A stretch of 64,000 nucleotides of DNA from Deltaproteobacteria bacterium 13_1_40CM_4_68_19. Its GTDB lineage: Bacteria > Myxococcota > Myxococcia > Myxococcales > 40CM-4-68-19. The stretch's first letter is position 1. Every line of letters begins with the position of its first letter. Both the position numbers and the translations under genes were made by a program. Below, piece by piece: positions 1-16,620 of this stretch. Below the pieces are notes generated by a model, which did not search any database, was not told where the DNA came from, and saw only the letters and a list, made by a program, of their open reading frames with translations. The stretch lies in NCBI GenBank assembly GCA_001918155.1, contig MNFJ01000105.1, positions 7,299 through 71,298 on the forward strand, in the 5' to 3' direction.

Positions 1-87
1 CGTGGTACGATAGCCGTCGCCGGACGAAGTGCAGCTTGCGGCTACTTCTTGGGACTGACAGATGATGAGACGCGCTCTAGGACGCTG

Positions 88-962: not shown

Positions 963-1006
963 CTACGCTTTGAATCTGCATGTCCGTGAAAACGGAGACG
1001 CGCTTG

Positions 1007-1327
1007 CTAGGGCTTGTACAGCCTCAGCCGCTCCACCGGCTCGCCTCGAACCAGATGCTTCTCGACGATCTCCTCCACGTCCGCCTCGGTGACGTGGCCG
1101 TACCAGACGGCGTCCGGGTAGACGACCACCGAGCAGCCGTTCTCGCAGTTGTCGAGGCAACCCGCCTTGTTCGCGCGGATCTCCTCATCGAGCCCGCGGG
1201 CTCGCAGCGCCGCCTTGAACTTCTTCAGCAGCTCCGGCGAGCCCTTGCGCGTGCAGTCACCCTTCTCGGACTCCGGCGGCCGCTCGTTGAGGCAGATGAA
1301 GACGTGTTTGCGAAACGGAGGCGGCAT
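1007..1327 (-). CDS. Thioredoxin-like (2Fe-2S) ferredoxin
   Basis: C-terminal 106 aa of track ORF 1007..1552: MPPPFRKHVFICLNERPPESEKGDCTRKG..AGCLDNCENGCSVVVYPDAVWY, with the typical Cys pattern. ATG at 1327 overlaps the upstream stop (ATGA). Confidence 0.75.
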   Translation of the reverse strand: MPPPFRKHVFICLNERPPESEKGDCTRKGSPELLKKFKAALRARGLDEEIRANKAGCLDNCENGCSVVVYPDAVWYGHVTEADVEEIVEKHLVRGEPVERLRLYKP

Positions 1328-1923
1328 CAGCTGTCCTCTTCGCCGAGCGCACGGCGGAACGAGGTCGCGTCCGCCAGGCTCGGGTCCAGCGCCGCATCCG
1401 CGCGGCCGCGAACGGCGGGTGCGAATGACAGCGCCAGCACCAGGATGCGCGGCGGTACGGCGAGATGCAACAGCGAGGGTTCGAGCGCGACCACGGGCGC
1501 GCGGCCGGCAGCGGCCCGCGAGATCTCGTCCGGGCTGGCGCAGGCAACGCATGCCGCCATGTGCGTCGAGGTGGCAGCCTGGATCAGGCGCGCGAGCAGC
1601 TCAGGAGGCACCGCCCCCGCCCGCAGCAGGACGGCATCGGCGCCCGCGGTGCGCGACTCGTAGATGCGGAATTCCTCGGCGAGGAGGTCGGCCCGCATCA
1701 CCGGGATCGAGACGGCGCGAGCGGCCACGCCGAAGCGCGCGAGATCGTCGCCGGCCGCGATCGCGATCGCGGCCGCCTCCGCTTCGTCGAGCGCCCGGGC
1801 CGCCTCCGCGATGTCCGCACGCCCGGCATCGAGCAGCGGAATCCGCTCCAGCGCCTGCCGCTGGCGGTCGATGGCATGCGCGAAGTTCCGGATCGACGGC
1901 GTGACGCCCGCGCGCGGGTCCAT
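1327..1923 (-). CDS. Indole-3-glycerol-phosphate synthase (TrpC)-like TIM-barrel protein, short and divergent
   Basis: 198 aa. The pattern ..SIPVMRADLLAEEFRIYESRTAGADAVLLRA..ELLARLIQAATSTHMAACVACAS..E.. parallels IGPS (lPvLrKDFi..yQi.eAr..GADavLLI). The Lys of KDF is replaced and the N-terminus is short. Confidence 0.45.
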   Translation of the reverse strand: MDPRAGVTPSIRNFAHAIDRQRQALERIPLLDAGRADIAEAARALDEAEAAAIAIAAGDDLARFGVAARAVSIPVMRADLLAEEFRIYESRTAGADAVLLRAGAVPPELLARLIQAATSTHMAACVACASPDEISRAAAGRAPVVALEPSLLHLAVPPRILVLALSFAPAVRGRADAALDPSLADATSFRRALGEEDS

Positions 1924-1926
1924 GGG

Positions 1927-3342
1927 TCAAAGCAGCCGCAGCAGCCGCTGTCGCATGGCGTCGCGCGTCTGCGGGTCCGGGGCGGCATGGACCGCTCGCT
2001 CGAGCGCCTCCGCCGCCTTGCGGCGGAACCCTTTCTGTTCGTAGAGGCCCGCGAGCGCGCGCAGCGCCTGGAACAGGTTTGGACGCAGCTCGACCGCCCG
2101 CTCGTAGGCGGTGATGGCGTGGAACAGATCGCCCTGATCGTGCATCGCGCGCGCCAGGGCGAAATGCGTGCGGGGCGCGAACGGGTCTTCCTTCAAGGCC
2201 TTCTCCAGCACGACGCGCGCCTCGGCCGGCTTCTTCTCTTCGAGCAGATCGATCCCCTCCTGGTAGAGCTTGTCCGCCTTCTCGGACGCCTCGGCCGACT
2301 GGGATCCGCCGGACAGGCGCTCCTCGACCCGGCGCAGCAGGTCGGGAAGATGGAACGGTTTCTCCAGGTAGTCGTCGGCTCCGAACGTCTCGCGCGCGTC
2401 GTGGGCGTAGCGCCAGCCGCGATAGACCGCGCTGACCAGGATCACCGGCGTCGTGCGCGTCCGCGCGCTGGCCTTCAGCCGCGCGCAGATCTCGAATCCG
2501 TGCACGTGCGGGAGCATGGCGTCGAGCACGACCAGATCGTAGCGCTCGGAGCTCAGCTTCTGCTCCGCCTCGCGCCCGTCGCGAGCGAGGTCGACCACGT
2601 ATCCCGCGGACTTCAAGGTGCGGTCGAGCATCCGGAGGATGTCGAAATCGTCATCGACCGCAAGGATGCGGGCAGGCCCGGAACGCACCGCGACCGCGCC
2701 GAGCACTTCCCCCTCGTCGTCCCCGCCCACCTCCAACTCGAGCTCGGGTTCGCGCAGCTCTTCGAGCTCCTCCAGCTCCTCCTCCGACTCGAGGACTGCA
2801 TCGGTCGCCGGAGCCTCGCCGGGAGCGCGGCGGATCTCCGGCAGGATCACCGCGAACGTCGCCGGCGCGCCGGGCCGCACGCTCTCGCCGCGCCAGAACG
2901 ACTCGCCGCGTTTCTTCGCGTCATAGGAGCCGGCGATCGCCTCGATCAGCGATCCCGGCATGGCGGCGTACGGCGAGACTTCCTGGCCGGTGATGAAGCG
3001 CAGCTCCTCCAGCACGTCGAAATTGTCGGACCCGGCGCTGACCGCGACGTGCAGGCGGCCGCCCTCGACCGACAGCGGCAGGACGATGTCGGATTCGGCC
3101 ACCTGCAGGGGAATGGTATCGAGCACCGAGAGATCGATGGCGGTCCGCGCGAGATCGACGCCGGGGATCCCGAGCTGTTCCGACATCATCGAGACCAGAT
3201 CGTTCTCCGCCACTCCGAGCTCCAGGACCTTGTTGAGGAACGCGGACCGGGTCGGCGACTCGGTCTGCGCCCGACGCAGCAGCGGTTCGGGCAGCGCCTG
3301 ACGCTCGGCGATCAGGCGAGCGATGGGCTCCAGCGATGCCAC
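1927..3342 (-). CDS. Response regulator with N-terminal T2SS-E/MshE N-terminal-like domain, acidic linker, receiver domain and C-terminal TPR repeats
   Basis: Frame of track ORF 1927..3462. Receiver domain: ARILAVDDDFDILRML..DLVVLDAMLP..PVILVSA..DDYLEKPF. N-terminal GspE_N-like region: ..LGIPGVDLARTAIDLSVLDTIPLQVAE... TPR-like tail present. Probable GTG start at 3342, downstream of the GT2 stop. Confidence 0.7.
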   Translation of the reverse strand: MASLEPIARLIAERQALPEPLLRRAQTESPTRSAFLNKVLELGVAENDLVSMMSEQLGIPGVDLARTAIDLSVLDTIPLQVAESDIVLPLSVEGGRLHVAVSAGSDNFDVLEELRFITGQEVSPYAAMPGSLIEAIAGSYDAKKRGESFWRGESVRPGAPATFAVILPEIRRAPGEAPATDAVLESEEELEELEELREPELELEVGGDDEGEVLGAVAVRSGPARILAVDDDFDILRMLDRTLKSAGYVVDLARDGREAEQKLSSERYDLVVLDAMLPHVHGFEICARLKASARTRTTPVILVSAVYRGWRYAHDARETFGADDYLEKPFHLPDLLRRVEERLSGGSQSAEASEKADKLYQEGIDLLEEKKPAEARVVLEKALKEDPFAPRTHFALARAMHDQGDLFHAITAYERAVELRPNLFQALRALAGLYEQKGFRRKAAEALERAVHAAPDPQTRDAMRQRLLRLL

Positions 3343-3376
3343 GAGACCTCGATTATCACAGGGGAGCCAGACGTGG

Positions 3377-4297
3377 TCAGGCGGTGAACAGGAAGTGCTC
3401 TCCTTCCCGGTAATTGCCTGCCTCGAGGACGCCGCGAATCTCCTCGCGCGCGCCTTCGGCACCCACCGCGCACAACATCAGCGCCTCACCGGGCCGCGGA
3501 AGATCGCCTGCGACGCGCACGGGCCTGCCGCGTGCGAGCCGCTTCTTGCCGTCGACGTCGTAGAACGCGCGGGGCCTCAAGCCGTGCGCCTCCAACTCGC
3601 GCGCCAGGCGCTTTCCGGTCGGACCGGCGCCCCAGATATCGAACGATCTGTCGCGGAGGGGTCCGCGTGCGAGGTAGTGTGCGCGCAGACGGAACATCGC
3701 CGCGTCCGAATACGCCGGCCCGGTGCGCGTCAGGCGGCCGGGCGAATCCCGCCACTGCAGCAGCACCTGCGGCACCTTCGCCAGCGACCAGCCGCGTTCC
3801 ACCATGCGCAGCAGCAGGTCCCAGTCCTCGGCCCAGCCGTGGTCTTCCCAGCCTCCCTGCAGCGCATCGCGGCGGAACGTGGCGCTCGGGTGGACGAGCG
3901 GCGCCTCGACGAATCTGGCATTGCGGCATTGCTCCGCGGTGACTGTCTCGTTGAGCCACCGCTCGAGGCGAGCCAATCCCGGCGAGAGTGGCCGCGGGAT
4001 GCAATGGATCAGGCTGCCGGCGGCGCCGAGCGCCGCATCCTTCGCCAGCAACTCGGCCTGCAGGCGCAGGCGGTCCGGGTGCACGAGATCGTCCGCGTCC
4101 ATGCGCGCGATCAGCTCGCCGCGGCAGTGCGCCAGACCGAGGTTCAGCGCGGCGACGAGACCATGGCCAGGTCCGCGCACCACGCGGACGCGGCCGTCGG
4201 TCCGGCATGCGCTCGCGAGGATCGCCGAAGTCGAGTCGGAAGACGCGTCGTCGACGCACACCACCTCGTACGGTGGGGCGGCGCGCTGGGCGAGCAC
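3377..4297 (-). CDS. Family 2 glycosyltransferase
   Basis: YEVVCVDDASSDST..ARMDADDLVHPDRL (DxD) is typical of GT2. The first canonical start is GTG 4297, but the GT2 beta1 strand (PLISVLLPAKDASSTIADALRG) is encoded in frame upstream (4298..4366) without an ATG/GTG/TTG. Confidence 0.75.
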   Translation of the reverse strand: MLAQRAAPPYEVVCVDDASSDSTSAILASACRTDGRVRVVRGPGHGLVAALNLGLAHCRGELIARMDADDLVHPDRLRLQAELLAKDAALGAAGSLIHCIPRPLSPGLARLERWLNETVTAEQCRNARFVEAPLVHPSATFRRDALQGGWEDHGWAEDWDLLLRMVERGWSLAKVPQVLLQWRDSPGRLTRTGPAYSDAAMFRLRAHYLARGPLRDRSFDIWGAGPTGKRLARELEAHGLRPRAFYDVDGKKRLARGRPVRVAGDLPRPGEALMLCAVGAEGAREEIRGVLEAGNYREGEHFLFTA

Positions 4298-4368
4298 GCC
4301 GCGGAGCGCATCGGCGATCGTCGAGGAGGCATCCTTCGCTGGGAGCAGGACGCTGATCAGCGGGCTGG

Positions 4369-5994
4369 TCAGTGTCCGTGCTCCCCGAACACGTCGCGCA
4401 TCGCGTTGGCGATCTCGCCGAGCGTCGCGCGCGCCTTCACCGCCGCGACGATGTTCGGGACGAGGTTACCGGTGGCCTGCGCAGTCCGCTTCAGCTCGGA
4501 GAGCGCGCGCGTGGAGGCCGGATTGTCGCGTTGCCTGCGGAACGCCTTGACGCGCGCGATCTGCTGCTCCTCGAGCGCGGGATCGATCCGCAGCGTCTCG
4601 ATCGGCGCCTCGTCCGCGGCCGCGAACTCGTTCACTCCCACCACGATCTGCTTCTTCTCCTCGACTTCCTTCTGCGCCTTGTATGCCGCATCCTCGATCT
4701 CGCGCTGCGGGAACTGCCGCGAGATCGCCTCCACCATCCCGCCCATCTCGTCGATCTTGCGCAGGTACTCCACCGCCTTCGCCTCGAGCTCATCGGTCAG
4801 CGACTCCAGCGCCCACGAGCCCCCGACCGGGTCGATGAAATCGCACACGCCGCTCTCGTAAGCGATGATCTGCTGAGTCCGCAGCGCGATGCGCGCGCTC
4901 GCCTCCGTGGGCAGGCTCAGGGCCTCGTCCCGCCCATTGGTGTGCAGGGACTGGCACCCGCCGAGCACGGCCGCCAGCGCCTGCAGCGCCACGCGGATGA
5001 CGTTGTTGTCCGGCTGCTGCGCGGTCAGCGTCGACCCGGCCGTCTGCGCGTGGAAGCGCAGAGTGCAGGAGCGCGGATCCTTCGCCTTGAACCGCTCCTT
5101 CATCGTCCGCGCCCAGAGACGGCGCGCGGCGCGGAACTTGGCCACTTCCTCGATGAAGTTGTTGTGGACGTTGAAGAAGAAACTCAGCCGCCCGGCGAAG
5201 GAGTCCACGTCGAGGCCGCGCTTCACGGCGGCTTGGACGTATGCGATGCCGTCGCCCAGCGTGAAGGCGATCTCCTGCGCGGCGGTCGAACCTGCTTCCC
5301 GGATGTGGTAGCCGGAGATCGAGATGGGGTTCCACTTCGGCACCGTCTTCGAACAGTATTCGAAAGTGTCGGTGATCAGCCGCATCGAGGGTCCGGGCGG
5401 ATAGATGTACGTGCCGCGGGCCATGTACTCCTTCAGCACGTCGTTCTGGATCGTCCCCGACAGCGCGGCGGGCTCGGTGCCGTGGGCCTCGCCGACCGCC
5501 TGGTAGAGCGCGAGCAGCGTCGCGGCGGTGGCGTTGATGGTCATCGACGTGGACACCTTGCCAAGGTCGATGTCCTTGAAGAGGCGCTCCATGTCGTCGA
5601 CGGAATCGATGGCCACTCCGACCCGGCCTACCTCGCCCCGCGCGCGCGGGCTGTCGGAGTCGTGGCCCATCTGCGTCGGCAGGTCGAACGCGGTCGAGAG
5701 GCCGGTCTGGCCTGACGCCAGCAGGTAATGGAACCGCGAGTTGGTCTGCTCCGCGGTGCCGAATCCCGCATACTGCCGCATCGTCCAGAAGCGCCCGCGG
5801 TACATCGTCGGTTGCACGCCGCGGGTGAACGGGAACTGGCCGGGAAAGCCGATGGACGGCGACGGCTCGTCGGGAGAGTAGAGCGGTTTCACCTCGATGC
5901 CGCTGGAGGTCTCGAAGAGCGCCTTGCGCAGGGCCCCGGGCTTCGCCGCCGTCTTGCCGTAGACCTCCCGCGCCCACTTCTCCAGCGCCGTCAT
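4369..5994 (-). CDS. Methylmalonyl-CoA mutase, catalytic (N-terminal) subunit, no B12-binding domain
   Basis: 541 aa from ATG 5994 ([13 protein letters not shown]..). Motifs [26 protein letters not shown] and [14 protein letters not shown]. Ends ..[16 protein letters not shown] without a cobalamin-binding domain. ATGA overlap with the upstream methyltransferase. Confidence 0.9.
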
Positions 5995-6788
5995 CTTCGC
6001 GCTCCTTCCGCCCAGCAGATCGAGTACCAGATGGCTGCCTCCGGCCGGTGCGCCCACTCGCGGAATGCGACGAGGGCCGCATCGATCTCCGCCGAGCCGA
6101 GGAGGCCCCCTTCGATCATCGCTTCCCGGGCGCCGGCGAGCTGGCTGTGGATGTTCTCGACGAAGCCGGGCCACTTCGGTTCCGCGGCGCAGGAACCGAA
6201 GTAGATCCAGGTCGAGCGCACCGGCGCCGCGCCGGCGTCGTGCAGCAGCGAGACCAGCCGCCGCCCGATGTACGGGTCGCACCCGAGGCGGTCGTAGCTG
6301 CGCTGGAAGGCCTTCCACAGCGGCGTGAACCCCGCGGGCTCGGGCCAGCAGCGGAAGACGTCGTGGTCATCGTCCTGCAGGACGATGCGCCCGCCGGGCC
6401 GTACCGCGCGGACCATGTGCCGCACGACCTCCAGGGGCTCGCGGACGTGCTCGAGAACGAAGCGCGCGTGCGCGAGATCGAACGAGCCCCATTCGTGGTC
6501 CCGGAGCGGAGGATCGCTGACGTCGCCCAGGCGCAGATCGAGAAGCGCATGGCGCTCCGCCCGCGCCAGTTGCTCCTCGCTGCGCTCGATGCCGACCAGG
6601 CGCGTGCCGGCCGCGCGCGCCATGTCGAGCGAGAGCTGCCCGAGACCGCAGCCGAAGTCGATGATGAGATCGCCCTTCGAGATGGCGAGCTCCCGCATCG
6701 CGGCTTCGTTCATCAGCCGATTGAGCAGCGACAGGCGTCCCTGCTCGGCAGGAGAGGTCCCGTGCAGGTAGGCCGATTCCGCGCCCAT
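5991..6788 (-). CDS. Class I SAM-dependent methyltransferase
   Basis: Motif [14 protein letters not shown] and [13 protein letters not shown] 6788 preferred over TTG 6830. Confidence 0.7.
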
Positions 6789-6867
6789 CGGGCCCGCTTG
6801 TAGCGCAATTCCGCCGGACACGCTGCGCAAGGACCCGGCGCTTGTGTTTCACGCGAGCTTCCTCGAA

Positions 6868-7371
6868 TCAGGCGACGACCACGAGCTTCGCTCCCGACTC
6901 CACCGCCGCGCCTTCCACTGCGTGCAGCTCGGTGACCCTGCCCGCTTTGGGGCTCTGCAGCTCGTTCTCCATCTTCATCGCCTCGACGACCACGAGCCCC
7001 TGGCCTTCCCGCACTTCGTCGCCGACCTTCACCAGCACGCGCGTCACCTTCCCGGGCATGGGGGCATCGACGCGCTGCGGCCCTTCCAGCGTGAACTTGC
7101 CGGAGGCGCGCCGCATCCGCAGCTTGCGCTCGTCCAGGATCTCCAGCGGATACACGGTCTCGCCGACCAGGACGGCGCTCCGCCCGTCCTTGCCCGGCTC
7201 GATGTCGCACCGGTAGCTGCGGGTCCCCGCGATCAGGCTCAGGGCGAATCCCTGGAGGTGGACCGCATCCACCTCCAGCACCTTCTTGTCGATGACGACG
7301 TGGTACCCGTTCTCGCGGGGCGTGATCTCGATCAGGCGCTCCTCGCCGCCCAGGATGGCGGTGTACCTCAC
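6868..7371 (-). CDS. Biotin carboxyl carrier (biotin/lipoyl attachment) protein of acyl-CoA carboxylase
   Basis: Last 167 aa of the 976-aa track ORF. Biotinylation motif VVVEAMKMENEL. GTG 7371 overlaps the TGA of the biotin carboxylase gene (GTGA). Confidence 0.8.
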   Translation of the reverse strand: MRYTAILGGEERLIEITPRENGYHVVIDKKVLEVDAVHLQGFALSLIAGTRSYRCDIEPGKDGRSAVLVGETVYPLEILDERKLRMRRASGKFTLEGPQRVDAPMPGKVTRVLVKVGDEVREGQGLVVVEAMKMENELQSPKAGRVTELHAVEGAAVESGAKLVVVA

Positions 7372-8897
7372 CGGGACCTCCGCAACGATCCGAGCCGTCC
7401 GGCGCGTCCCCACGCCGACTCGCCGGTCGCGTTCGCCGCTGCCTGGCGCAGCGCCGCGCGCTGGTCCTGCTCGCATTGCCAGATCGCGGCGGCCGCGAGC
7501 GCGATCTCCTCGTCGCCGGTCTTCTCCGTCCGCAGCAGCCGATCCTGCGCCCGCGCCAGTAGACCGGTGTCGTAGTCGCCCTTGCGGAACTCTTCCAGCT
7601 CCAGCACGCGCGCGAGGTACGAGGCATTGGTGGTGATTCCCTTCACCACCGTCTCGCCCAGCGCCCGCCGCAGCCGGGCGATGGCTTCCTCCCGCGTCCG
7701 CGCCCAGACCGCGAGCTTGCCGATCATCGGATCGTAGTAGCGCGGCACTTCGCTCCCGCTCTCGACGCCGCAGTCGTTGCGCACGCCGGGCCCCTCCGCG
7801 AGCCTCAGCTCGAGGATGGTGCCGGGGCTGGGGAGGAAGTTCCTCGCCGGGTCCTCGGCGTACAGACGCGCCTCGATGGCATGGCCGCGCAGGTTCTCGA
7901 GCACGTCTTGCTGCGTCCAGGGCAGGTGGCCGCCGGCGGCGACCTCGATCTGCCAGCGCACCAGATCGAGCCCGGTGCACCATTCGGTGACGGGGTGCTC
8001 GACCTGCAGGCGGGTGTTCATCTCCAGGAAATAGAAGGTGCGGGTGTTGCCGTCGACGAGGAACTCGACGGTTCCCGCGCCGACGTATCTCACCGCCTTC
8101 GCCGCGCTGACCGCCACCCGGCCCATCTCGGCGCGCAGTTCGGGCGTGACGATGGCGCTGGGCGTCTCCTCGATCACCTTCTGGTGGCGCCGCTGCACGC
8201 TGCATTCGCGCTCGCCGAGCCAGATGCAGTTGCCGTGGGTGTCCGCGAAGACCTGGATCTCCACATGCCGCGGGCGCGCCACTGCTTTCTCGATGTACAC
8301 CCGCGCATCGCCGAAGGCGTTCAGGGCTTCCCGCTGCGCGGTGGCCAGCGCGGAGTCGAAGTCTTTCGGAACGGCCACCAGGCGCATCCCCTTGCCTCCG
8401 CCGCCGGCCGCCGCCTTGAGCATGATCGGATACCCGATGGAGAGCGCGTAGTCCTTGGCCGCGGCCTCGCCGCCCTCCGGAATGGGCTCCTTCAGCCCGG
8501 GCACGACAGGGACCCCGGCGTCGATCACCCTGCGGCGGGCCCGCGTCTTCTCGCCCATCTCCTCGATCGCCTCGGGCGGCGGACCGATGAATGCGATTCC
8601 GGCGCTCGCGCAGGCGCGCGCGAAGGCGGCGTTCTCGGAGAGGAAGCCGTACCCCGGGTGGACGGCGTCCGCGCGAGTCGCCTTGCAGGCTGCGATCACG
8701 TTGTCGATCGCCAGGTAGCTTTCGCGCGACGCCGCGGGGCCCACCCGCACCGCTTCGTCGCAGGACCGGACGTGCAGCGCGGCGCGGTCCGCGTCGCTGT
8801 ACACGGCGACCGTGCGGATGCCCATCTCCCCGCAGGTGCGCGCGACCCGCACCGCGATCTCGCCGCGATTCGCGATCAGGACTTTGGCGATGGTCAC
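7368..8897 (-). CDS. Acetyl/propionyl-CoA carboxylase biotin carboxylase subunit
   Basis: KVLIANRGEIAVRVARTC, GYPIMLKAAAGGGGKGMR and EMNTRLQVEHPVTE are ATP-grasp biotin carboxylase hallmarks. Probable GTG start at 8897 (VTIAKVLIANRG). Confidence 0.9.
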   Translation of the reverse strand: MTIAKVLIANRGEIAVRVARTCGEMGIRTVAVYSDADRAALHVRSCDEAVRVGPAASRESYLAIDNVIAACKATRADAVHPGYGFLSENAAFARACASAGIAFIGPPPEAIEEMGEKTRARRRVIDAGVPVVPGLKEPIPEGGEAAAKDYALSIGYPIMLKAAAGGGGKGMRLVAVPKDFDSALATAQREALNAFGDARVYIEKAVARPRHVEIQVFADTHGNCIWLGERECSVQRRHQKVIEETPSAIVTPELRAEMGRVAVSAAKAVRYVGAGTVEFLVDGNTRTFYFLEMNTRLQVEHPVTEWCTGLDLVRWQIEVAAGGHLPWTQQDVLENLRGHAIEARLYAEDPARNFLPSPGTILELRLAEGPGVRNDCGVESGSEVPRYYDPMIGKLAVWARTREEAIARLRRALGETVVKGITTNASYLARVLELEEFRKGDYDTGLLARAQDRLLRTEKTGDEEIALAAAAIWQCEQDQRAALRQAAANATGESAWGRAGRLGSLRRSR

Positions 8898-8963
8898 GGC
8901 GGCGCACCCTAGCAGAACTCTCCTGCCATCCACACCGCGCGGGCGAGACGACAACGTCGGTGT

Positions 8964-9857
8964 TCAGTCGGTCGCGCCCAGCGCCGTCTTCGGGTGCTGG
9001 GCGCGGAAGCGCAGAGGATCGACCGGCTCTCCCGCCAGGTCGATCTGGTAATGCAAGTGCGGTCCGGTGGTGAGCCCCGTGCTGCCGGAGCGCGCGATCG
9101 TCTGGCCCTTGTCGACGTGCTGCCCGTCGCGCACCATCAGCGCGTCGTTGTGGCAATAGGTGGTGACGACGCCGTGGCCGTGATCGAGCACGACGATCCG
9201 CCCGTTGATGCCGTCGCTGCTGGCTCGGCGCACCACGCCGGCGGCGACGGCATGCACCGGGGTGCCGATCGACGTTCCCAGGTCGACTCCGGCGTGCAGC
9301 CGGCGGCCGCCGAGGATCGGGTGGTCGCGGACGCCGAACAGCGAGGTGATCCGCACCGACTCGGGCAGGGGCCATCCGAGCGCGTACGCGCCGCCCAGCA
9401 TCGCCGCCTGCGCTGCCCGGGCGACACAGGCTTCCGACCGGGGAGGGAGCGCGCGCGCCAGATCGTCCAGAGCGGACGACCGGGCCTCCGCGACGGCGAA
9501 GCGCGCCGCGTCCTCGCCGCAGAAGAGCGCCAGCAGCGCCGCATCGTCGGATCCGAGCCGCTGCGCGAGCGCGCGGATCCGGGGCGCAAGCTCGGCGGGA
9601 GATCCGTCGAGGACCGCGGCCGCTCCGTACGCGAGCGCCTGCGCCGGTGGCACCGGACCCGCGAGAGGCGGAGGCGGACGGGGCGGCACGAGCGTGCCCG
9701 CCGCGAAGTAAGCCAGGAGCGGACGCGCGGTGCTGCGGGTCCCGAAGATCCACGCCCCTGCCGTCCGCACCAGCGCGCCGGCGGGCGTGTGGTACCACCC
9801 GGCCCAGAGGCAGAGGGCGGAAAGCAGCAGCTCGAGCAGCGGGAGGCGTTCTCTCAT
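8964..9857 (-). CDS. M23 family metallopeptidase
   Basis: C-terminal LHAGVDLGTSIGTPVHA..LDHGHGVVTTYCH..GSTGLTTGPHLHY (HxxxD / HxH). N-terminal hydrophobic helix. ATG 9857 overlaps the upstream stop (ATGA). Confidence 0.8.
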   Translation of the reverse strand: MRERLPLLELLLSALCLWAGWYHTPAGALVRTAGAWIFGTRSTARPLLAYFAAGTLVPPRPPPPLAGPVPPAQALAYGAAAVLDGSPAELAPRIRALAQRLGSDDAALLALFCGEDAARFAVAEARSSALDDLARALPPRSEACVARAAQAAMLGGAYALGWPLPESVRITSLFGVRDHPILGGRRLHAGVDLGTSIGTPVHAVAAGVVRRASSDGINGRIVVLDHGHGVVTTYCHNDALMVRDGQHVDKGQTIARSGSTGLTTGPHLHYQIDLAGEPVDPLRFRAQHPKTALGATD

Positions 9858-10489
9858 CGCCAGGAGAGCACCGCCGCGATGAGCAAGGGCAACAAGACGA
9901 CCGCCGCCGCCATGCGGTACGGTGCCGTGCGCTCGTGCTCGACCGATCGGAACACCGCCCGAGGCACCAGCACGACGAGCACCGCGACGAGGATCAGCGC
10001 GCGGAGGAAATGGGCGAGCCAGGAGAGATGGACGGCGAGCTGCACGGAGCCTTGCACCATCCTCGCCAGCGAGAATGCTCCCGCGATGCCGACCAGCAGC
10101 GTCGCCGCCGGGCGGACCAGCAGAAGGGGCGAGCGGATCCGCCGCAACATGTCGCGCCCGAGCTGCCATTCCCGCGCGGCGTCGCGCTCTTCGTAGCCGA
10201 GCAGCGGAACCGCGATCAGCGCGTCGGCCGCCAGCTCCCAACAGAGCGCCACGGCGCGCGCGAACCAGGTGCGCTGCGTGAGCCCGATCACCTCCACCAG
10301 CGGCGCGGTGAACGACCAGCTCGACCAGATGGCGTCGAAGAACGCGTCCACGCGGTCGACCAGCCAGAGCACCCGGTCGCCGACCACGTCCGCGGCCGCA
10401 TGCGCGCCGACCGCGACCAGCGCGGCGAGACCCAGCGGCAGGAAAACCCAGCGGATCCGGCCCACGCGTTCGGAGACGTTCCAGTGCAC
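9854..10489 (-). CDS. Hypothetical multi-pass membrane protein
   Basis: 211-aa ORF with several long hydrophobic segments. Translationally coupled to the downstream M23 gene. No recognisable motif. Confidence 0.55.
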   Translation of the reverse strand: MHWNVSERVGRIRWVFLPLGLAALVAVGAHAAADVVGDRVLWLVDRVDAFFDAIWSSWSFTAPLVEVIGLTQRTWFARAVALCWELAADALIAVPLLGYEERDAAREWQLGRDMLRRIRSPLLLVRPAATLLVGIAGAFSLARMVQGSVQLAVHLSWLAHFLRALILVAVLVVLVPRAVFRSVEHERTAPYRMAAAVVLLPLLIAAVLSWR

Positions 10490-10499
10490 GGGCCGATCT

Positions 10500-10566
10500 T
10501 AGCCGCTCCCGCGCCGAAGGCGCGGGTATGCGGCTATTGTTTTGAGGTTGTACAGATCATGAAATG
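10500..10566. repeat. REP-like intergenic hairpin repeat (same family) with TCATGAAATG tail
   Basis: A 21-mer tagccgctcccgcgccgaagg (10500..10520) is identical to 35650..35670. Contains nested hairpin cccgcgcc-gaag-gcgcggg. Lies between the pccB stop and the next gene start. Confidence 0.65.
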
Positions 10567-10569
10567 CGC

Positions 10570-12192
<1,623 letters not shown>

Positions 12193-12204
12193 GCCGCGAC
12201 GAAC

Positions 12205-12300
12205 GTAGAACACATCTCGCAGCCGGTACAGTCCAAGACACAGTCGCTAAGCCGCCTTCGGCGGCCGCGACTGAGCCGCTTCGGCGGCCGCGACTGAAAG
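12205..12300. repeat. Intergenic cassette copy 1: two tandem GC hairpins + conserved spacer ending at the pccB start
   Basis: A 44-nt core (12236..12279) is identical to 16556..16599. Flanks are about 80% similar by eye. Hairpins are of gccgcc-ttcg-gcggc type. Confidence 0.7.
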
Positions 12301-12323
12301 CCGCGCTTGCCGGGTAGTGGAGG

Positions 12324-12761
12324 TCAGCGCCGTTCGTGGGCCAGGAGCCAGCGCTTCCGCTCCTCTCCCCAGGCGTAACCGCACAGCTTGCCGTCGGACG
12401 CGATCACCCGGTGGCAGGGGATGGCGAGGCACACGGGATTGCTGCCGTTTGCCGAGCCGACGGCGCGCGGGTGCGTGCCGAGCTGCCGCGCCAGCTCGCC
12501 GTACGTGCGGGTCTCGCCCGGCGGAATCGCGCGCAAGGCGGCCCAGACACGCCGCTGGAATGGCGTGCCGTCCGGATCGACCGCAACCCCATCCAACGCG
12601 CGCACGTTGCCGGCGAAGTACGCCCGCACCTGGTCGCTGATCGGCGTCGGCGCCCGCGTTCCTTCGAACGGCTCATCGAAGCGCAGGGCGTGGAGGGCAT
12701 CGCCGCGAAGCGCGAGGTGGATCGGGCCGATCGGGGTCTCGACTGTATCAACGCGAAGCAT
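12324..12761 (-). CDS. ogt: Methylated-DNA--protein-cysteine methyltransferase
   Basis: 145 aa from ATG 12761. Active-site PCHRV (AIPCHRVIASDG) and TYGELA helix. Confidence 0.9.
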   Translation of the reverse strand: MLRVDTVETPIGPIHLALRGDALHALRFDEPFEGTRAPTPISDQVRAYFAGNVRALDGVAVDPDGTPFQRRVWAALRAIPPGETRTYGELARQLGTHPRAVGSANGSNPVCLAIPCHRVIASDGKLCGYAWGEERKRWLLAHERR

Positions 12762-12771
12762 GTTCACTCCT

Positions 12772-14109
12772 TCAGGAAAGCCAGATGGCGGCTGCGGCAT
12801 ACGCCCGCCACGGCCGCCAGGTCTCCGCGCGCTCGAGCAGAGCGCTCGGTGTCCGTCCGAGGGCACGGCAAAGGCCCAGGTCGGAAGCGGGGAATGCGTC
12901 GGGTTCACCGAGCCCGCGGAGCGCCACGAGCTGCGCGGTCCAGTCGCCGATGCCGGGGACTTTGCAGAGCGCCGCCGAGACCGCGTCGAGGTCCCGTGAT
13001 CCATCCAGCCGCACGTGTCCGTCGCGGGCGCTCCGGGCGAGCTGGACGATGGCGTTTGCCCGCACCGCCGGCATGCCCCGCAGCTCCGCCCCGGCGAGCC
13101 GGGCCGGAGTCGGGAAACCTCCGAACTGCTCGATCAGCTCGATCGCCATCGCTCGCGCGCGCTGCACCGAGATCTGCTGGCCGAGGATCGCGCGCACGGC
13201 CATCTCGAACGGATCCCACGCGCCTGGGATTCGCAGTCCCGGCCTGAGGAACGGCTTCAGGACGGCGTCGCGTCCGAGGTGCTCGAGAATCGGTCCGGGG
13301 TCGGCGCGCAGATCGAACACGCGCTGGATGCGGGCGGCGATCTCGAGTGCCCGCGGCGCCAAGGCCGCCGGCATGCTCGCCTCCAGATGCGAAGGTCCAC
13401 CGCGACGCACTTCCAGCCAGCCTTCCGGCAACCGGCGCCGCCAGGTGCCGTCGCGGACCTCCTCGATGGACGGCAGCGCGCGCGCCGCGAAGAACGCGAG
13501 CAGCGCCTCGAAATCGAGCGGCGGGCGAAACGGCAACCGCAACGAGAGTTCCGCCCCCGCGTCCGCGGCAGGCTTCGCCCGAAGCTGCGAGGGAGTGCGC
13601 CCGAACCCGCGGCGCACCGCCTCGTTGAAGCGGCGAAGGCTGTGGAAGCCGGCGGCGTGGGCGACGTCGATGATCCGGAGCGACGAATTCTCCAGGAGCT
13701 GCCGGGCGAGATGCAACCGGCGCGTGCGCAGGACTTCGGCAGGAGAAGCGCCGAGATGTCGCGCGAACAGGCGGCGCAAGTGGCGATCGGTGACGCCCAG
13801 CCGCTCCGCGAGGCCCGACGGATCGCCGGACTCCTCGAGCAGGCGGAGAGCGCGCGAGAGCGTGGCCGCGGTGCCGGCCTGGGCGGGAGAGCCGGGAGCC
13901 GCGTCGGGGCGGCAGCGGAGGCAGGCGCGGTAGCCGGCGGCCTGCGCGGCAGCCGCGGAAGGAAAGAAGACCACGTTTTCGCGGCGCGGCAAACGCGCCG
14001 GGCAGCCTGGACGGCAATAGATGTTCGTCGTCCGCACGCCGAGGAAGAAGCGGCCGGCGAAGCGTCCATCGCGGCCCTGGACCGCGCGGTAGCAGGCTTC
14101 GGCATCCAT
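12772..14109 (-). CDS. Ada-type regulator (Zn methyl-acceptor + AraC HTH) fused to AlkA-type DNA-3-methyladenine glycosylase II
   Basis: 445 aa from ATG 14109. CRPGCPAR..CLRCRP Zn cluster, AraC HTH (IIDVAHAAGFHSLRRFNEAVRR), then an HhH-GPD region (..VPGIGDWTAQ..). Confidence 0.85.
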   Translation of the reverse strand: MDAEACYRAVQGRDGRFAGRFFLGVRTTNIYCRPGCPARLPRRENVVFFPSAAAAQAAGYRACLRCRPDAAPGSPAQAGTAATLSRALRLLEESGDPSGLAERLGVTDRHLRRLFARHLGASPAEVLRTRRLHLARQLLENSSLRIIDVAHAAGFHSLRRFNEAVRRGFGRTPSQLRAKPAADAGAELSLRLPFRPPLDFEALLAFFAARALPSIEEVRDGTWRRRLPEGWLEVRRGGPSHLEASMPAALAPRALEIAARIQRVFDLRADPGPILEHLGRDAVLKPFLRPGLRIPGAWDPFEMAVRAILGQQISVQRARAMAIELIEQFGGFPTPARLAGAELRGMPAVRANAIVQLARSARDGHVRLDGSRDLDAVSAALCKVPGIGDWTAQLVALRGLGEPDAFPASDLGLCRALGRTPSALLERAETWRPWRAYAAAAIWLS

Positions 14110-14253
14110 GGCGGGAATGAATAGCAGGGGCGCACCCCGATGTCTGGACGTGGACGGACCTCGATGTTTCACACGGCCAAGTCCAAAAGGCTTCACCGTA
14201 GAGCGCGCAGATACGTCCTTTTTGTGCACTGCCGGGTGCGAATTCTACCTCCC

Positions 14254-14273
14254 GTGAGAACCAGGTTTCTCAC
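14254..14273. promoter_or_regulatory. Inverted repeat GTGAGAA-N6-TTCTCAC, candidate regulator (EBP/repressor) site
   Basis: Perfect 7-bp arms seen in the ada-divergent intergenic region, about 30 nt upstream of the sigma54-like element. A similar GTGAAAG-N6-CTTTCAC lies at 31150..31169. Confidence 0.3.
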
Positions 14274-14301
14274 GCGCCTTCATCTGCCGCCGCGCGCTCG
14301 C

Positions 14302-14317
14302 TGGCACGCCCCCTGCT
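14302..14317 (+). promoter_or_regulatory. Sigma54-like -24/-12 promoter element (TGGCACG-N4-CTGC), copy 1
   Basis: TGGCACGCCCCCTGCT has the GG-N10-GC geometry, with one mismatch to TGGCACG-N4-TTGC. It lies inside a 27-bp repeat and about 25 nt upstream of GTG 14343. Confidence 0.4.
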
Positions 14318-14342
14318 CGTCTGGCAGCGCGGGACGAACTAT

Positions 14343-15154
14343 GTGTGGTTCGGAGCCAACCACGGCTTCGCCCTCGGTTTCGCCGATTACGAAGGCAATC
14401 CCGGCTGCAATGGCCACCGCGGTTGCTCCGGCAACTACGAGCACTCCCATCCGGCGATCAACGACTCGCACGGCTGGTTCATCACGGGCGGGTATTACGG
14501 CATCGCGATCGACACCTGGCCGCATGTCGACGGCCAAGGAAACACGTTCTTCGACGTCTGGTTCGGCGGCCGCACGCGCACTACGTGGTTCCGCATGGGA
14601 GAAGAACTGGGCGACTTCTGGCGCGCGCAACTCCGGACCGAGCTGTACGTCAGCAAGGATCACAATCCCGCCAACATCGCCGACGATCCGGCCGCGCAGG
14701 CGGCCTTCTGGAACCGCATGGACATCTGGCCCGATCCGGTGAGCGAGCGCAGGGACGCCGCCCACGGCAACTGGCTCTCGCAGGAACCGGACTACAAGAA
14801 CCCGAGCGACTGGGTCTTTGACGAAGTGACCGGCGTCGCCGTACTGGCAAACGGCGACGCCTGGATTGGCTCGTGGACGAACGGCCTTCGGCTGATCGAT
14901 CACGACGGCCACTTCGTCGCGGATGCGACGGACGTGCTGCCCACGAAGTCGGTCGGCGCGCTGGGCGCGCTCGCTGGCACGCCCCCTGCTCCGGAGCGGC
15001 CGCGAGGGGAACCGTGCTGCACTACCGTTCTCTGGGCGCGCAGACGAACAGCGCGGTCTGGGACATCCAGGTGCAGCCCGCGACCGCTACGTCCAAACGG
15101 CGAATCCTCGTTGCGTTCCGCCGCGGCTCGGTCGGCGTGTACAACGGCGACTAG
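14343..15154 (+). pseudogene. Beta-propeller-like protein fragment, N-terminally truncated and frame-broken near 14965-15010
   Basis: Frame 14343 has high GC3 and propeller-blade-like repeats (YVWFGANHGFAL, DAWIGSWTNGLRLIDHDG). It has no signal peptide and stays open upstream to 14202. After about 14965 the plausible protein continues in the +2 frame (GTVLHYRSLGAQTNSAVWDIQVQP..VGVYNGD, stop 15154). Confidence 0.5.
14975..14990 (+). promoter_or_regulatory. Sigma54-like -24/-12 element, copy 2 (inside the second 27-bp repeat)
   Basis: Identical TGGCACGCCCCCTGCT. About 23 nt upstream of GAGGGG-aacc-GTG (15004..15016). Confidence 0.3.
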
Positions 15155-15155
15155 A

Positions 15156-16181
15156 TCACCGGAGCGGCAATCGCAACTCGATCTCTGCCCCTTCCGCGCG
15201 TGGGTTGCCGGTGAGCGTGAGTGGTCCCGCGTTGCGGAGCAGCGATCCGTAGAGCAGGTGGAAGGCATACGCTCCCGTGGCGAGCGGCCCGCGCAGCGCA
15301 TCGAGCGGGGTCAGTCGAGCGAGCACCACGTCGAGATCCACGAGCGCGACGCTCGCGTCGAGCGAGGGCCCGCCGGCCGGCGCCGCATCGAAGACGGGGG
15401 CGACGCGGAACGCCCGCCCGAGCGACGGCCCGTCGGAGAGCATGTGCACGTCGACGCCGTCGAGGCGTTCCTCCACGCGCGAGGCGCGGTGCAGCTCCGC
15501 TTGCGCCGGCACGCCGAGCTGGGCGAGCGCGACTTCGATCGCGCGGCGGCCGGCTGGCGCGACGCCCGCGCGCAGGCAGGCGATGCCGGCTGCGCATCCA
15601 GCCGGCGCGCTCCCGGAGAGGACCGGAGCGCCTGCAACGACGAGCCCGCGCGCGACGATTCCGGTGCTGCCCGCGTCGATGGCGAGGACGGCTGCCCGCA
15701 GCGGCTCCAGTAGACGCAGCCAGAGCCACGTCGGGCCACTCGCTCTTGCCGCCAGGGCGGCAGGGAGCGGCGCGGGCCGCGACATCGCCGCCAGCAGCGC
15801 AGCCGGATTGCGGCCGGACGCCGTCAAAAGCCGCAGGCCCGCCACGCGTCCCGCACGGCGCTGCGGATCCTCGGCGATCCAGGACGCGACCATCTTCTTC
15901 GCCCTGCCCGCATTGCGCACCGGGGCGATCAGTCCGGCGCCATCGTGCGAGAAGACCAGCATCCTCGCCCCGCGCGGCGCGAGGCCCCATTGGGAGGTCC
16001 TGGCGAGCAGATCGACACCGACGCGGTCGCGCAGCGTCGTGCCTACCGGCTCCGGCGCCAGCGACGGCGCGTACGCCCCGGCCTTCTCCAGCAGTGCTCG
16101 CAGCCCGGACGCGTCCTCGACGGAGAGCACCACGTCCGCGGACGCTGGCACCAGCACCGCGGCGAGGAGAAGCGGCAGCAA
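15156..16181 (-). CDS. Hypothetical secreted protein (signal peptide)
   Basis: 341 aa. N-terminus MLPLLLAAVLVPASA is signal-peptide-like. Ala/Leu-rich with no recognised domain. TTG start one nt after the upstream stop. Confidence 0.55.
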   Translation of the reverse strand: MLPLLLAAVLVPASADVVLSVEDASGLRALLEKAGAYAPSLAPEPVGTTLRDRVGVDLLARTSQWGLAPRGARMLVFSHDGAGLIAPVRNAGRAKKMVASWIAEDPQRRAGRVAGLRLLTASGRNPAALLAAMSRPAPLPAALAARASGPTWLWLRLLEPLRAAVLAIDAGSTGIVARGLVVAGAPVLSGSAPAGCAAGIACLRAGVAPAGRRAIEVALAQLGVPAQAELHRASRVEERLDGVDVHMLSDGPSLGRAFRVAPVFDAAPAGGPSLDASVALVDLDVVLARLTPLDALRGPLATGAYAFHLLYGSLLRNAGPLTLTGNPRAEGAEIELRLPLR

Positions 16182-16523: not shown

Positions 16524-16620
16524 GTAGAATGCATCGCGTAGAGAGTACAGTCTAAAGACACAGTCGCTAAGCCGCCTTCGGCGGCCGCGACTGAGCCGCG
16601 CCTTCGGCGGCTGCGACTGG
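16524..16620. repeat. Intergenic cassette copy 2 (same orientation) between the RDD gene and the small membrane-protein gene
   Basis: gtagaatgcatcgcgtagagagtacagtctaaagacacagtcgctaagccgccttcggcggccgcgactgagccgc.. aligns with 12205 onward. Confidence 0.7.

What the first reader, a model, noticed from the sequence alone, without database searches (positions are those of the whole stretch)
14292..14991. Perfect 27-bp direct repeat carrying a sigma54-like -24/-12 element brackets a broken beta-propeller gene
gcgcgctcgctggcacgccccctgctc occurs at 14292..14318 and again at 14965..14991, an offset of 673 nt (hand-aligned). It contains TGGCACG-N4-CTGC, which has the GG-N10-GC geometry of sigma54 promoters with one mismatch to TTGC. 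Copy 1 sits in the ada-divergent intergenic region, about 24 nt before GTG 14343. That GTG opens a high-GC3 ORF encoding propeller-blade-like repeats (YVWFGANHGFAL.., DAWIGSWTNGLRLIDHDG..). The ORF has no N-terminal signal, and its frame stays open upstream through copy 1 to 14202. Copy 2 lies exactly where that frame stops looking like protein. The plausible C-terminus (GTVLHYRSLGAQTNSAVWDIQVQP..GSVGVYNGD, stop 15154) continues in the +2 frame, and GAGGGG-aacc-GTG (15004..15016) offers an independent start about 22 nt after copy 2. There are three readings. One propeller gene may have been split by duplication or insertion of a promoter-bearing segment. Alternatively, a duplicated sigma54 promoter may drive two short ORFs. 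Or the repeat may be a k-mer-sized assembly join. A 7-6-7 palindrome (14254..14273) lies upstream, where an enhancer-binding protein site would be expected.
Basis: partly seen in the sequence, partly recalled or inferred. Interest (0 to 1): 0.55.

Follow-up and report, generated by a model that had tools for sequence, protein, structure and literature searches.

The report
Duplicated promoter in decayed propeller locus
The 27-base repeat is the conserved sigma-54-type promoter of a neighbouring gene that has been deleted here, and it appears twice most likely because this contig stitches together two co-existing deletion versions of one decaying gene pair, so the underlying biology is ordinary.

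Summary
The perfect 27-bp direct repeat (14292-14318, 14965-14991) is real and not chance. It is the core of a promoter-like element, TGGCACG-N4-CTGCT. In related Myxococcota this element sits 35-45 nt before the ATG of the first of two tandem secreted beta-propeller genes (A, B) divergent from ada. The element is conserved from uncultured lineages to Myxococcus and Corallococcus.

The window lacks gene A and the first ~170 codons of B. Repeat copy 1 is fused directly to B codon "VWQRG". Copy 2 plus 16-18 nt of gene A's leader replaces 77 nt of B and shifts the frame. Both reading frames therefore belong to one gene.

Near-identical contigs (>99%) from many independent assemblies carry two simpler alleles:
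- promoter|B-fragment with the 77 nt intact: 10 contigs
- promoter+leader|last 48 codons of B: 7 contigs

The window combines one junction from each allele with a private blunt junction at 14964|14965, which no other assembly shows. Four contigs stop exactly at the two allele branch points.

Most likely (~0.55) the duplication is an assembly chimera of co-occurring alleles. A real recombinant (~0.3) is not excluded without reads. Interest is low.

The parts
12772..14109 (-). ada/alkA-type fusion gene (445 aa), divergent neighbour that anchors the locus
   Evidence: Pfam Ada_Zn_binding, HTH_18, AlkA_N and HhH-GPD. The same gene lies next to the propeller pair in L002-L005.
14110..14291 (.). Native ada / gene-A intergenic region (U)
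   Evidence: Identical in L001, L068, L174, L178 and L180. Aligns with the ada-gene A spacer of relatives.
14254..14273 (.). Conserved inverted repeat GTGAGAA-N6-TTCTCAC, a candidate regulator (activator) site about 40 nt upstream of the -24 element
   Evidence: Read directly. The consensus TG(A/G)GAA(C)-N5-7-TTTC(C/T)CA is kept in most lineages in the alignment. Function is inferred, not shown.
14292..14318 (+). Repeat copy 1 (R) at its native position. It contains the -24/-12 element TGGCACG-CCCC-CTGCT (14302-14317).
   Evidence: Orthologous element before the gene A ATG in L002, L003, L122 and many others.
14317..14320 (.). Junction 1 (R|M). A deletion of about 2.4 kb removes gene A's leader, all of gene A and about 170 codons of gene B. 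It has 2-nt TC microhomology.
   Evidence: Native contexts are ...CTGCTC|CGGAGC (L122) and ...CGGATC|GTCTGGCAG (L122, L011-L014). The same junction is in L001, L068, L164/L184, L174, L178, L187, L188 and L191.
14319..14964 (+). M, an internal fragment of propeller gene B (about residues 169-394 of a ~470-aa protein). A possible start is GTG 14343. No signal peptide.
   Evidence: tblastn with 35 homologues. 100% identical to L174 over 14137-14964. Carries W at a family-invariant R.
14964..14965 (.). Junction 2 (M|R). Blunt, with no microhomology, and private to this window.
   Evidence: 0 hits for the 27-nt junction string in genome contigs and metagenome contigs. Absent from all 25 near-identical contigs examined. 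No protein with this read-through is on record.
14965..14991 (+). Repeat copy 2 (R), the same promoter core, displaced into gene B
   Evidence: Together with the next 16-18 nt it is colinear with the native promoter and leader of gene A.
14992..15009 (+). x, the leader of gene A (CGGAGCGGCCGCGAGGGG) including its Shine-Dalgarno GAGGGG (15004-15009). The final GG is shared with gene B (junction 3 microhomology).
   Evidence: L122 reads cggagcgaccgcgaggggggacaggcATG and L002 reads cgaagcggccgcggggggagacaaggcATG. The x|C junction is also in L127, L170, L180, L182, L183 and L189.
15008..15154 (+). C, the last 48 codons of gene B plus stop, in a different frame from M. The in-frame GTG 15014 gives a 46-codon ORF behind the displaced leader.
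   Evidence: 100% identical to L001 932-1134. A 46-aa gene was called at this place in the variant-2 contig L189.

Best explanation
**What the repeat is (confidence above 0.9).** In related Myxococcota the locus reads ada <- | -> gene A -> gene B | <- 341-aa gene. A and B are paralogous secreted or lipoprotein beta-propellers of about 460-560 aa. Gene A is preceded by a conserved regulatory block with four parts:
- an inverted repeat
- a -24/-12 element, TGGCACG-N4-CTGCT
- a GGGGGAG ribosome-binding site
- the ATG

The 27-mer is the core of that sigma-54-type promoter.

**What has happened to the genes.** The locus is decaying in the population this window comes from. Two simple microhomology deletions circulate in otherwise >99% identical genomes.
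- Allele 1 fuses the promoter core directly to the middle of gene B (U-R|M-K-C).
- Allele 2 keeps the promoter and leader but deletes everything up to the last 48 codons of gene B (U-R-x|C).

Both alleles leave signal-less remnants that are most likely non-functional.

**Why the repeat appears twice (inferred, about 0.55).** The window reads U-R|M|R-x|C. It is allele 1 up to the end of M, followed by the allele-2 branch beginning 27 nt before the point where the alleles diverge. The most probable cause is that an assembler, scaffolder or gap-closer laid the two alternative branches of a population bubble in series. On this reading the second copy and the blunt join at 14964|14965 are not a structure of any real chromosome.
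For: **Identity of the repeat**
- R plus x is colinear with the sequence just before the gene A ATG in L002, L003 and L122.
- The strict motif TGGCAC-N5-[CT]TGC is found upstream of the first propeller gene in 21 of 40 genome loci, and a relaxed form in 36 of 40. In the roughly 13-kb loci scanned it occurs once per locus, just upstream of the first propeller gene, with a single stray hit (L029, - strand). These loci include Myxococcus, Corallococcus, Pyxidicoccus and Hyalangium.
- The block is the conserved island in an otherwise diverged spacer.
- TGGCACG-N4-CTGCT is listed as the putative sigma-54 site of M. xanthus MXAN5040 (PMC9765219).

**Gene remnants**
- Homologues are 430-560 aa with an N-terminal signal or lipobox.
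- The window pieces cover only 68 of 120 family-invariant columns: 44 lie in the deleted N-terminal part and 8 in the replaced 77 nt. One invariant R is W.
- Synteny is shown.

**Two alleles**
- Junction R|M and/or the intact M-K-C arrangement is in 10 contigs: L001, L068, L164/L184, L174, L176, L178, L181, L187, L188, L191.
- Junction x|C is in 7 contigs: L093, L127, L170, L180, L182, L183, L189.
- These come from JGI, ENA and NCBI and from different assemblers.

**Co-occurrence of the alleles in single samples**
- L185 and L186 end exactly at 14318. L177 and L179 end exactly at 15008.
- L188 (k141) ends exactly 141 nt after 15008. This is how a branch contig carries a k-length overlap.

**Chimera**
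- The M|R junction has 0 hits in two public collections and is in none of the near-identical contigs.
- The read-through protein is not on record.
- The junction is blunt.
- The window is 100% identical to the allele-1 MAG contig L174 on both sides of the 43-nt R+x patch.
Against: - No reads are available, so the join is not directly tested.
- There is no second 27-nt repeat in the 64 kb that would mark a systematic k=27 artefact.
- The end of M at 14964 is not at an obvious branch point, so the exact assembler step is unexplained.
- The 77 nt of allele 1 are missing rather than duplicated.
- The artefact reading requires two independent deletions whose left ends lie only 16-18 nt apart. One complex real event could explain that coincidence instead.
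- SNPs in the flanks do not separate the two alleles well enough to show a haplotype switch. Only 14231 does, and there the window has the allele-1 state.
Confidence: 0.55

Rival explanations
1. The window is a real chromosome. Two routes are possible.

(a) DNA of an allele-2 cell was integrated into an allele-1 cell by homology-facilitated illegitimate recombination. The anchor was in C-D and the illegitimate join was at M|R, replacing the 77 nt with R+x.

(b) One replication accident in the intact ancestor switched template three times (U-R -> M -> back to R-x -> C). Allele 2 then arose from it by slippage between the two 27-bp copies. Allele 1 arose by repair with an intact gene B.
For: - The structure needs exactly one extra junction relative to known alleles.
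- Deleting between the two repeats of the window gives allele 2 exactly.
- SNP clusters inside M in L001 (14472-14606) and L178 (14586-14660) show that recombination with diverged gene-B alleles happens here.
- Route (b) would explain why the left ends of the two deletions lie only 16-18 nt apart.
- Homology-facilitated illegitimate recombination is a documented process (PMC3240628).
Against: - The junction is seen in no other assembly, although 25 near-identical contigs from many samples cover the locus.
- The junction has no microhomology, which is unusual for illegitimate joins.
- Route (b) requires K to be restored in allele 1 without importing any flanking SNP. L174 is 100% identical to the window on both sides.
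- Most assemblies break inside this locus, which marks it as a mixed-allele bubble.
Confidence: 0.3
2. A functional design: a duplicated sigma-54 promoter that independently drives two short ORFs. These would be a 200-plus-aa signal-less propeller fragment from GTG 14343 and a 46-aa peptide from GTG 15014.
For: - Both copies keep the full -24/-12 core.
- Copy 2 is followed by gene A's own Shine-Dalgarno sequence and an in-frame GTG.
- Gene callers called the 281-aa and 46-aa ORFs in allele-1 and allele-2 contigs.
Against: - The ORFs are fragments of one secreted protein. They lack its signal peptide and 52 of its 120 invariant positions.
- The first ORF runs out of frame for 250 codons across the convergent 341-aa gene.
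- An invariant Arg is lost.
- Related lineages show many other independent lesions in gene B, which is the signature of decay.
- Copy 2 lacks the conserved upstream inverted repeat.
Confidence: 0.05
3. The 27-bp repeats are target-site duplications or att-like sites of a 646-bp mobile or site-specific element.
For: A perfect direct repeat flanks a discrete segment.
Against: - The segment between the repeats is simply colinear gene-B coding sequence, with no transposase, integrase or terminal inverted repeats.
- Copy 1 is the native promoter at its native site.
- 27 bp equals the distance between two unrelated breakpoints.
Confidence: 0.02

Closest known systems
Sigma-54 (RpoN) dependent -24/-12 promoters of Myxococcus xanthus. 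Consensus TGGCACG-N4-TTGC(T/A). Example: the putative MXAN5040 site TGGCACG-N4-CTGCT (PMC9765219).
   Same: GG and GC are 10 nt apart. 11 of 12 consensus positions match. The leader is short, with the SD and ATG 35-45 nt downstream in the native context. A conserved inverted repeat lies upstream. Canonical TTGC is present in the cultured Myxococcaceae orthologues.
   Different: No transcript start, RpoN dependence or activator has been shown for this gene family. The candidate activator site is centred only about 60-65 nt upstream of the inferred start, closer than is typical. In the window one copy is fused to an internal gene fragment and the other lacks the upstream site.
Reg_prop (Pfam PF07494) beta-propeller proteins, for example the periplasmic sensor domain of Bacteroides BT4663 (PDB 4A2L)
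   Same: Intact family members pass the Pfam threshold for the blade motif (29.5 bits against a cut-off of 20.4). The family profile hits 4A2L at E = 6e-10.
   Different: These are stand-alone ~470-aa secreted or lipoproteins without kinase or regulator domains. The window's fragment alone gives no Pfam hit.
Branch (bubble) contigs of de Bruijn-graph metagenome assemblies, which carry a k-length overlap with the shared node, and chimeric contigs that place both branches in series
   Same: Copy 2 plus x plus C looks like the allele-2 branch starting a fixed 27 nt before the divergence point. L188 shows the same behaviour with k=141 at the other end of the bubble. Four contigs stop exactly at the two branch points.
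   Different: The assembler of the window is unknown. There is no other 27-nt repeat in the window. The 77-nt tail of the allele-1 branch is missing.
Homology-facilitated illegitimate recombination in naturally transformable bacteria (PMC3240628)
   Same: One homologous anchor (C-D) plus one illegitimate join would replace a short recipient stretch (77 nt) with donor sequence (43 nt).
   Different: Such joins usually use a few bases of microhomology, and here there are none. There is no evidence for this process in this organism.

Membership tests
sigma-54 dependent promoter | GG at -24 and GC at -12 with 10-nt spacing, and a match to TGGCACG-N4-TTGC(T/A) | tested here: met
   TGGCACG-CCCC-CTGCT at 14302-14317 and 14975-14990, 11 of 12 positions. 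Consensus as quoted in PMC9765219.
sigma-54 dependent promoter | More frequent than chance in the sequence itself | tested here: not met
   3 hits with up to 1 mismatch in 64 kb against 3.2 expected. The motif alone is not evidence.
sigma-54 dependent promoter | Conserved at the orthologous position upstream of the gene in diverged genomes | tested here: met
   Strict motif in 21 of 40 and relaxed motif in 36 of 40 protein-retrieved loci. Always on the coding strand just upstream of the first propeller gene and essentially nowhere else in about 13 kb per locus. It is a conserved island in the alignment.
sigma-54 dependent promoter | Upstream activator (bEBP) binding site | tested here: inconclusive
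   A conserved inverted repeat TG(A/G)GAA-N-TTC(C/T)CA lies about 40 nt upstream of -24. No protein is assigned and the position is closer than usual.
sigma-54 dependent promoter | Transcription depends on RpoN and an ATPase activator; mapped start about 12 nt after the GC | not testable with these tools
   Needs 5'-RACE or RNA-seq and genetics in a cultured relative.
Reg_prop beta-propeller family (PF07494) | Blade motif above the Pfam gathering score | tested here: met
   Met for the intact homologues: P0005 29.5 bits, P0012 22.3 bits and L122 gene A 25 bits, against a cut-off of 20.4. The window fragment and P0001 give no hit.
Intact, functional member of the propeller lipoprotein family | Signal peptide or lipobox, a full set of blades, one open frame | tested here: not met
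   The N-terminal ~170 residues are absent, 77 nt are replaced with a frameshift, 52 of 120 invariant columns are missing and an invariant R is W.
Assembly chimera of two co-occurring alleles | Each outer junction exists on its own in independent assemblies; the joining junction is private | tested here: met
   R|M and/or M-K-C in 10 contigs, x|C in 7 contigs, M|R in none.
Assembly chimera of two co-occurring alleles | The alleles co-occur in single samples, so an assembly graph branches here | tested here: met
   L185 and L186 end at 14318. L177 and L179 end at 15008. L188 ends 141 nt after 15008. L164, L174 and L176 also break inside the locus.
Assembly chimera of two co-occurring alleles | No read of the source sample spans the joining junction | not testable with these tools
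   Reads and the source of the window are not available.
Mobile element with target-site duplication | Element-encoded recombinase or terminal inverted repeats between the direct repeats | tested here: not met
   The interior is colinear gene-B sequence. No inverted termini are present.

The most novel reading that the evidence does not exclude
The three-junction structure is real, and the sigma-54 promoter region is a fragile site. Three breakpoints (R|M, M|R, x|C) and the left ends of two population-level deletions all fall within 45 nt around the -12/+1 region of a promoter that holds a stable closed RNA-polymerase complex. This would point to replication-fork stalling and template switching at sigma-54 promoters as a source of recurrent gene loss in natural myxobacterial populations.
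Probability: 0.08. Interest if true: 0.6.

Novelty: new member of a known kind. Interest (0 to 1): 0.22.

Why it matters
There is one practical consequence and one modest biological one.

**Practical.** This stretch of the contig should not be annotated as two genes with two promoters. It is a gene remnant, and it is probably a mis-joined mixture of two strain alleles. It also illustrates how a population deletion polymorphism can surface as a "perfect direct repeat" inside a metagenome-derived contig.

**Biological.**
- The work defines a well-conserved sigma-54-type control region (inverted repeat, -24/-12 element, short leader). It sits in front of a Myxococcota-wide family of secreted Reg_prop propeller proteins of unknown function. 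This gives a testable handle in cultured Myxococcus and Corallococcus.
- The gene pair is being lost through several independent lesions in one soil lineage.

Tried and rejected
- **Chance repeat.** Rejected.
- **Motif statistics inside the window.** Uninformative.
- **Known RNA family or sigma-70 promoter in 13900-15400.** None found.
- **Unusual DNA hairpin at R-x as a breakage cause.** Predicted folds are no more stable than shuffles, with z from +0.4 to +2.5. The small palindrome GCTCCGGAGC at the R|x boundary is perfect only in some lineages.
- **Paralogous copy elsewhere in the window as donor.** None. Only 14316-14963 and 15005-15151 hit the family.
- **Source of x elsewhere in the window.** None.
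- **A systematic 27-mer signature of the assembler.** Not found.
- **Haplotype-switch test with flanking SNPs.** Inconclusive. Only position 14231 separates the alleles, and there the window has the allele-1 state. Right-flank SNPs are shared across alleles.
- **Exact look-up of the 456-aa read-through ORF, and of P0022.** Neither is on record.
- **Scans for the private junction in genome and metagenome collections.** 0 hits.
- **Mobile element or target-site duplication.** Rejected on the homology map.
- **Small inversion as the origin of the odd 80 nt after the scaffold gap in L002.** Checked by eye and by blastn. Not supported.

Full report
**1. Observation**

The 27-mer GCGCGCTCGCTGGCACGCCCCCTGCTC is present at 14292-14318 and 14965-14991. 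The two copies are identical, and similarity stops abruptly at both ends. With up to three mismatches there is no third copy in 64 kb, and no shuffle produced one. It is the only exact repeat of this size in the window.

- the start GTG 14343, 24 nt after copy 1
- the frame open back to 14202
- the change of frame near copy 2
- GAGGGG-aacc-GTG at 15004-15016
- the stop at 15152-15154
- the 7-6-7 palindrome at 14254-14273

The motif TGGCAC-N5-TTGC with one mismatch is as frequent in the window as chance predicts: 3 hits against 3.2 expected. The motif alone therefore proves nothing.

**2. What the coding pieces are**

A search with the two pieces found 35 homologues. Complete ones are 430-560 aa and begin with a signal peptide or lipobox. 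Intact members pass the Pfam threshold for the Reg_prop propeller blade, and the family profile hits the propeller sensor domain 4A2L.

Every homologue aligns to 14316-14963 and again to 15005/15008-15151. About 25 residues are missing in between, and about 170 residues are missing in front. There is no other copy in the window.

The two frames are therefore parts of one gene. What remains covers only 68 of the family's 120 invariant columns, and one invariant arginine is a tryptophan.

**3. The ancestral locus**

Syntenic contigs of related Myxococcota (L002-L005) show this order: ada <- | -> gene A -> gene B | <- 341 aa <- 109 aa <- RDD | -> fumarase. The window has the same neighbours, but it lacks gene A and the 5' third of gene B.

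In these relatives the sequence just before the gene A ATG reads, for example in L002: gcgcgcgcccGCTGGCACGgCCCCTGCTCcgaagcggccgcggggggagacaaggcATG. The close relative L122 has the same block.

This corresponds to the 27-mer followed by the 16-18 nt that follow copy 2 in the window (14992-15009, called x here). It places the two copies as follows:
- Copy 1 is the promoter region of gene A at its native site.
- Copy 2 plus x is the same region sitting inside gene B.

**4. Is it a promoter?**

I retrieved loci by protein similarity, which does not bias toward the DNA motif. The strict motif TGGCAC-N5-[CT]TGC is found upstream of the first propeller gene in 21 of 40 loci, and a relaxed form in 36 of 40. 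In the roughly 13-kb loci scanned it occurs once per locus, on the coding strand just upstream of that gene, with a single stray hit elsewhere (L029, - strand). Cultured Myxococcus, Corallococcus, Pyxidicoccus and Hyalangium carry canonical TGGCAC-N5-TTGC.

In an alignment of the otherwise diverged ada/gene-A spacers, four blocks are conserved:
- the block GCTGGCACG-N-CCCTGCTC
- a GGGGGAG ribosome-binding site
- the ATG

The published consensus is TGGCACG-N4-TTGC(T/A). The exact variant TGGCACG-N4-CTGCT is listed as the putative sigma-54 site of M. xanthus MXAN5040 (PMC9765219).

I conclude that the 27-mer is the core of a sigma-54-type promoter. This rests on conservation and is an inference; no transcript data exist.

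**5. The junctions**

Let U be the spacer, R the 27-mer, x the leader, M = 14319-14964 and C = 15008-15154. Let K be the 77 nt of gene B that lie between M and C in relatives.
- The ancestor is U-R-x-A-N-M-K-C, where A is gene A and N is the 5' part of gene B that precedes M.
- The window is U-R|M|R-x|C.

The three junctions differ in character:

| Junction | Position | Microhomology |
|---|---|---|
| R\|M | 14318\|14319 | 2 nt (TC) |
| x\|C | 15007\|15008 | 2 nt (GG) |
| M\|R | 14964\|14965 | none (blunt) |

**6. Population context**

I scanned public metagenomes for the promoter core, and looked up the window's exact ada and 341-aa proteins. Together these gave 25 contigs that are 99-100% identical to the window around the locus. 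They carry two simpler alleles.

- **Allele 1 (U-R|M-K-C).** Found in L001, L068, L164/L184, L174, L176, L178, L181, L187, L188 and L191. The MAG contig L174 is 100% identical to the window over 14137-14964 and again after 15008.
- **Allele 2 (U-R-x|C).** Found in L093, L127, L170, L180, L182, L183 and L189.

These contigs come from JGI, ENA, NCBI and Logan and from several assemblers. Neither junction lies in repeated sequence. Both deletions are therefore real.

None of the contigs has the M|R junction. A scan for that junction in the genome and metagenome collections found nothing, and the read-through protein is not on record.

Contigs also stop at the allele branch points:
- L185 and L186 stop exactly at 14318.
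- L177 and L179 stop exactly at 15008.
- The k141 contig L188 stops exactly 141 nt after 15008.

This is the behaviour of an assembly graph that contains both alleles in one sample. Most other contigs also break somewhere inside the locus.

**7. Explanation of the duplication**

The window equals allele 1 up to the end of M, followed by the allele-2 branch starting 27 nt before the point where the alleles diverge.

*Chimeric join (about 0.55).* The simplest account is an in-silico join of the two branches of this bubble, through a k-mer-length overlap, scaffolding or gap closing. On this reading the second copy is not a feature of a real chromosome.

Four points weigh against this account:
- I have no reads.
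- There is no other 27-nt repeat in the window.
- I cannot explain why M ends at 14964.
- It needs two independent deletions whose left ends lie 16-18 nt apart.

*Real chromosome (about 0.3).* The alternative has two possible routes:
- homology-facilitated illegitimate recombination between co-existing alleles (PMC3240628)
- one multi-switch replication event in the intact ancestor, from which allele 2 would follow by slippage between the repeats

SNP clusters within M in L001 and L178 show that recombination with diverged gene-B alleles does occur here. Against this reading, the junction is private and blunt. Also, allele 1 (L174) shows no imported SNPs next to K.

*Designed pair of promoters driving two ORFs (about 0.05).* This is unlikely for three reasons:
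- The products are signal-less fragments.
- The first ORF runs 250 codons out of frame across the convergent gene.
- Gene B carries other independent lesions in related lineages.

*Mobile element.* This is excluded by the homology map.

**8. Comparison with what is known, and verdict**

The element works like, and by conservation is best filed as, a sigma-54 -24/-12 promoter with a candidate upstream activator site. RpoN dependence is untested. The genes are Reg_prop-type propellers of unknown function.

The rearrangement is either an assembly chimera or an ordinary illegitimate-recombination product in a decaying locus. Nothing here lies outside known kinds, and interest is low.

The most novel reading that my evidence does not exclude is that the promoter region is a real breakage hot spot. 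I give this about 0.08.

Noticed in passing
window 12235-12279 and 16555-16599 (also 12256-12297, 16573-16619): A 45-nt exact direct repeat, AAGACACAGTCGCTAAGCCGCCTTCGGCGGCCGCGACTGAGCCGC, contains GC-rich hairpin units in tandem (23- and 26-nt spacing). It looks like a REP-like intergenic element, and the two copies bracket the ogt-ada-propeller-341aa-109aa block. The 26-nt unit at 16594-16619 is absent from several near-identical contigs, so the copy number is polymorphic.
   Followed up: partly
window 49521-49648 versus 50069-50197: Two long exact direct repeats (60 and 70 nt) lie 548-549 nt apart. They could be a recent internal duplication or tandem paralogues.
   Followed up: no
window 14986-14993 (and 14313-14318, truncated); orthologous sites in L003, L011, L013, L022, L023, L056, L071, L099, L122: The 8-mer CTCCG(G/C)AG abuts and overlaps the -12 element. 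It is conserved in many lineages and matches the published Nla28 half-site consensus CT(C/G)CG(C/G)AG (PMC9765219). The R|M deletion junction cuts through it. There is only a single half-site, and it lies downstream of the promoter, so its significance is unclear.
   Followed up: partly
L122 1959-3365; proteins P0022, P0026, P0009, P0010: Gene B carries other independent lesions in close relatives. L122 has a frameshift plus a deletion of about 307 nt. P0022, P0026 and P0009 have in-frame deletions between short repeated motifs. P0010 has a frameshifted stretch. The gene appears to be decaying repeatedly in this clade, although some of these may be assembly errors.
   Followed up: partly
L002 3856-3935: After a scaffold gap of Ns, about 80 nt do not resemble gene B. 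Homology resumes at the same codon (VWQRG) as the R|M junction of the window, in a lineage only 74% identical. Coincidence, local divergence or a scaffolding artefact was not resolved.
   Followed up: partly
window 11084-11151 versus L068; window about 15994-16066 versus L170: The near-identical contig L068 lacks 68 nt inside a coding region, with CACG microhomology. L170 carries an extra 72-nt tandem duplication. These are further small structural differences between assemblies of the same population.
   Followed up: no
window 14472-14660: SNPs between near-identical contigs are clustered. L001 has 7 SNPs in 14472-14606 and L178 has 14 in 14586-14660, with none in the surrounding kilobases. 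This suggests short recombination tracts from diverged gene-B alleles. Window base 14586 (T) turns a family-invariant Arg into Trp.
   Followed up: partly
window 1752-1775 and 6368-6387: Perfect palindromes of 24 nt and 20 nt.
   Followed up: no
window 14000-14900: G+C falls to 0.62-0.65 across the spacer and the gene-B fragment, against 0.70-0.79 in the flanking genes.
   Followed up: no
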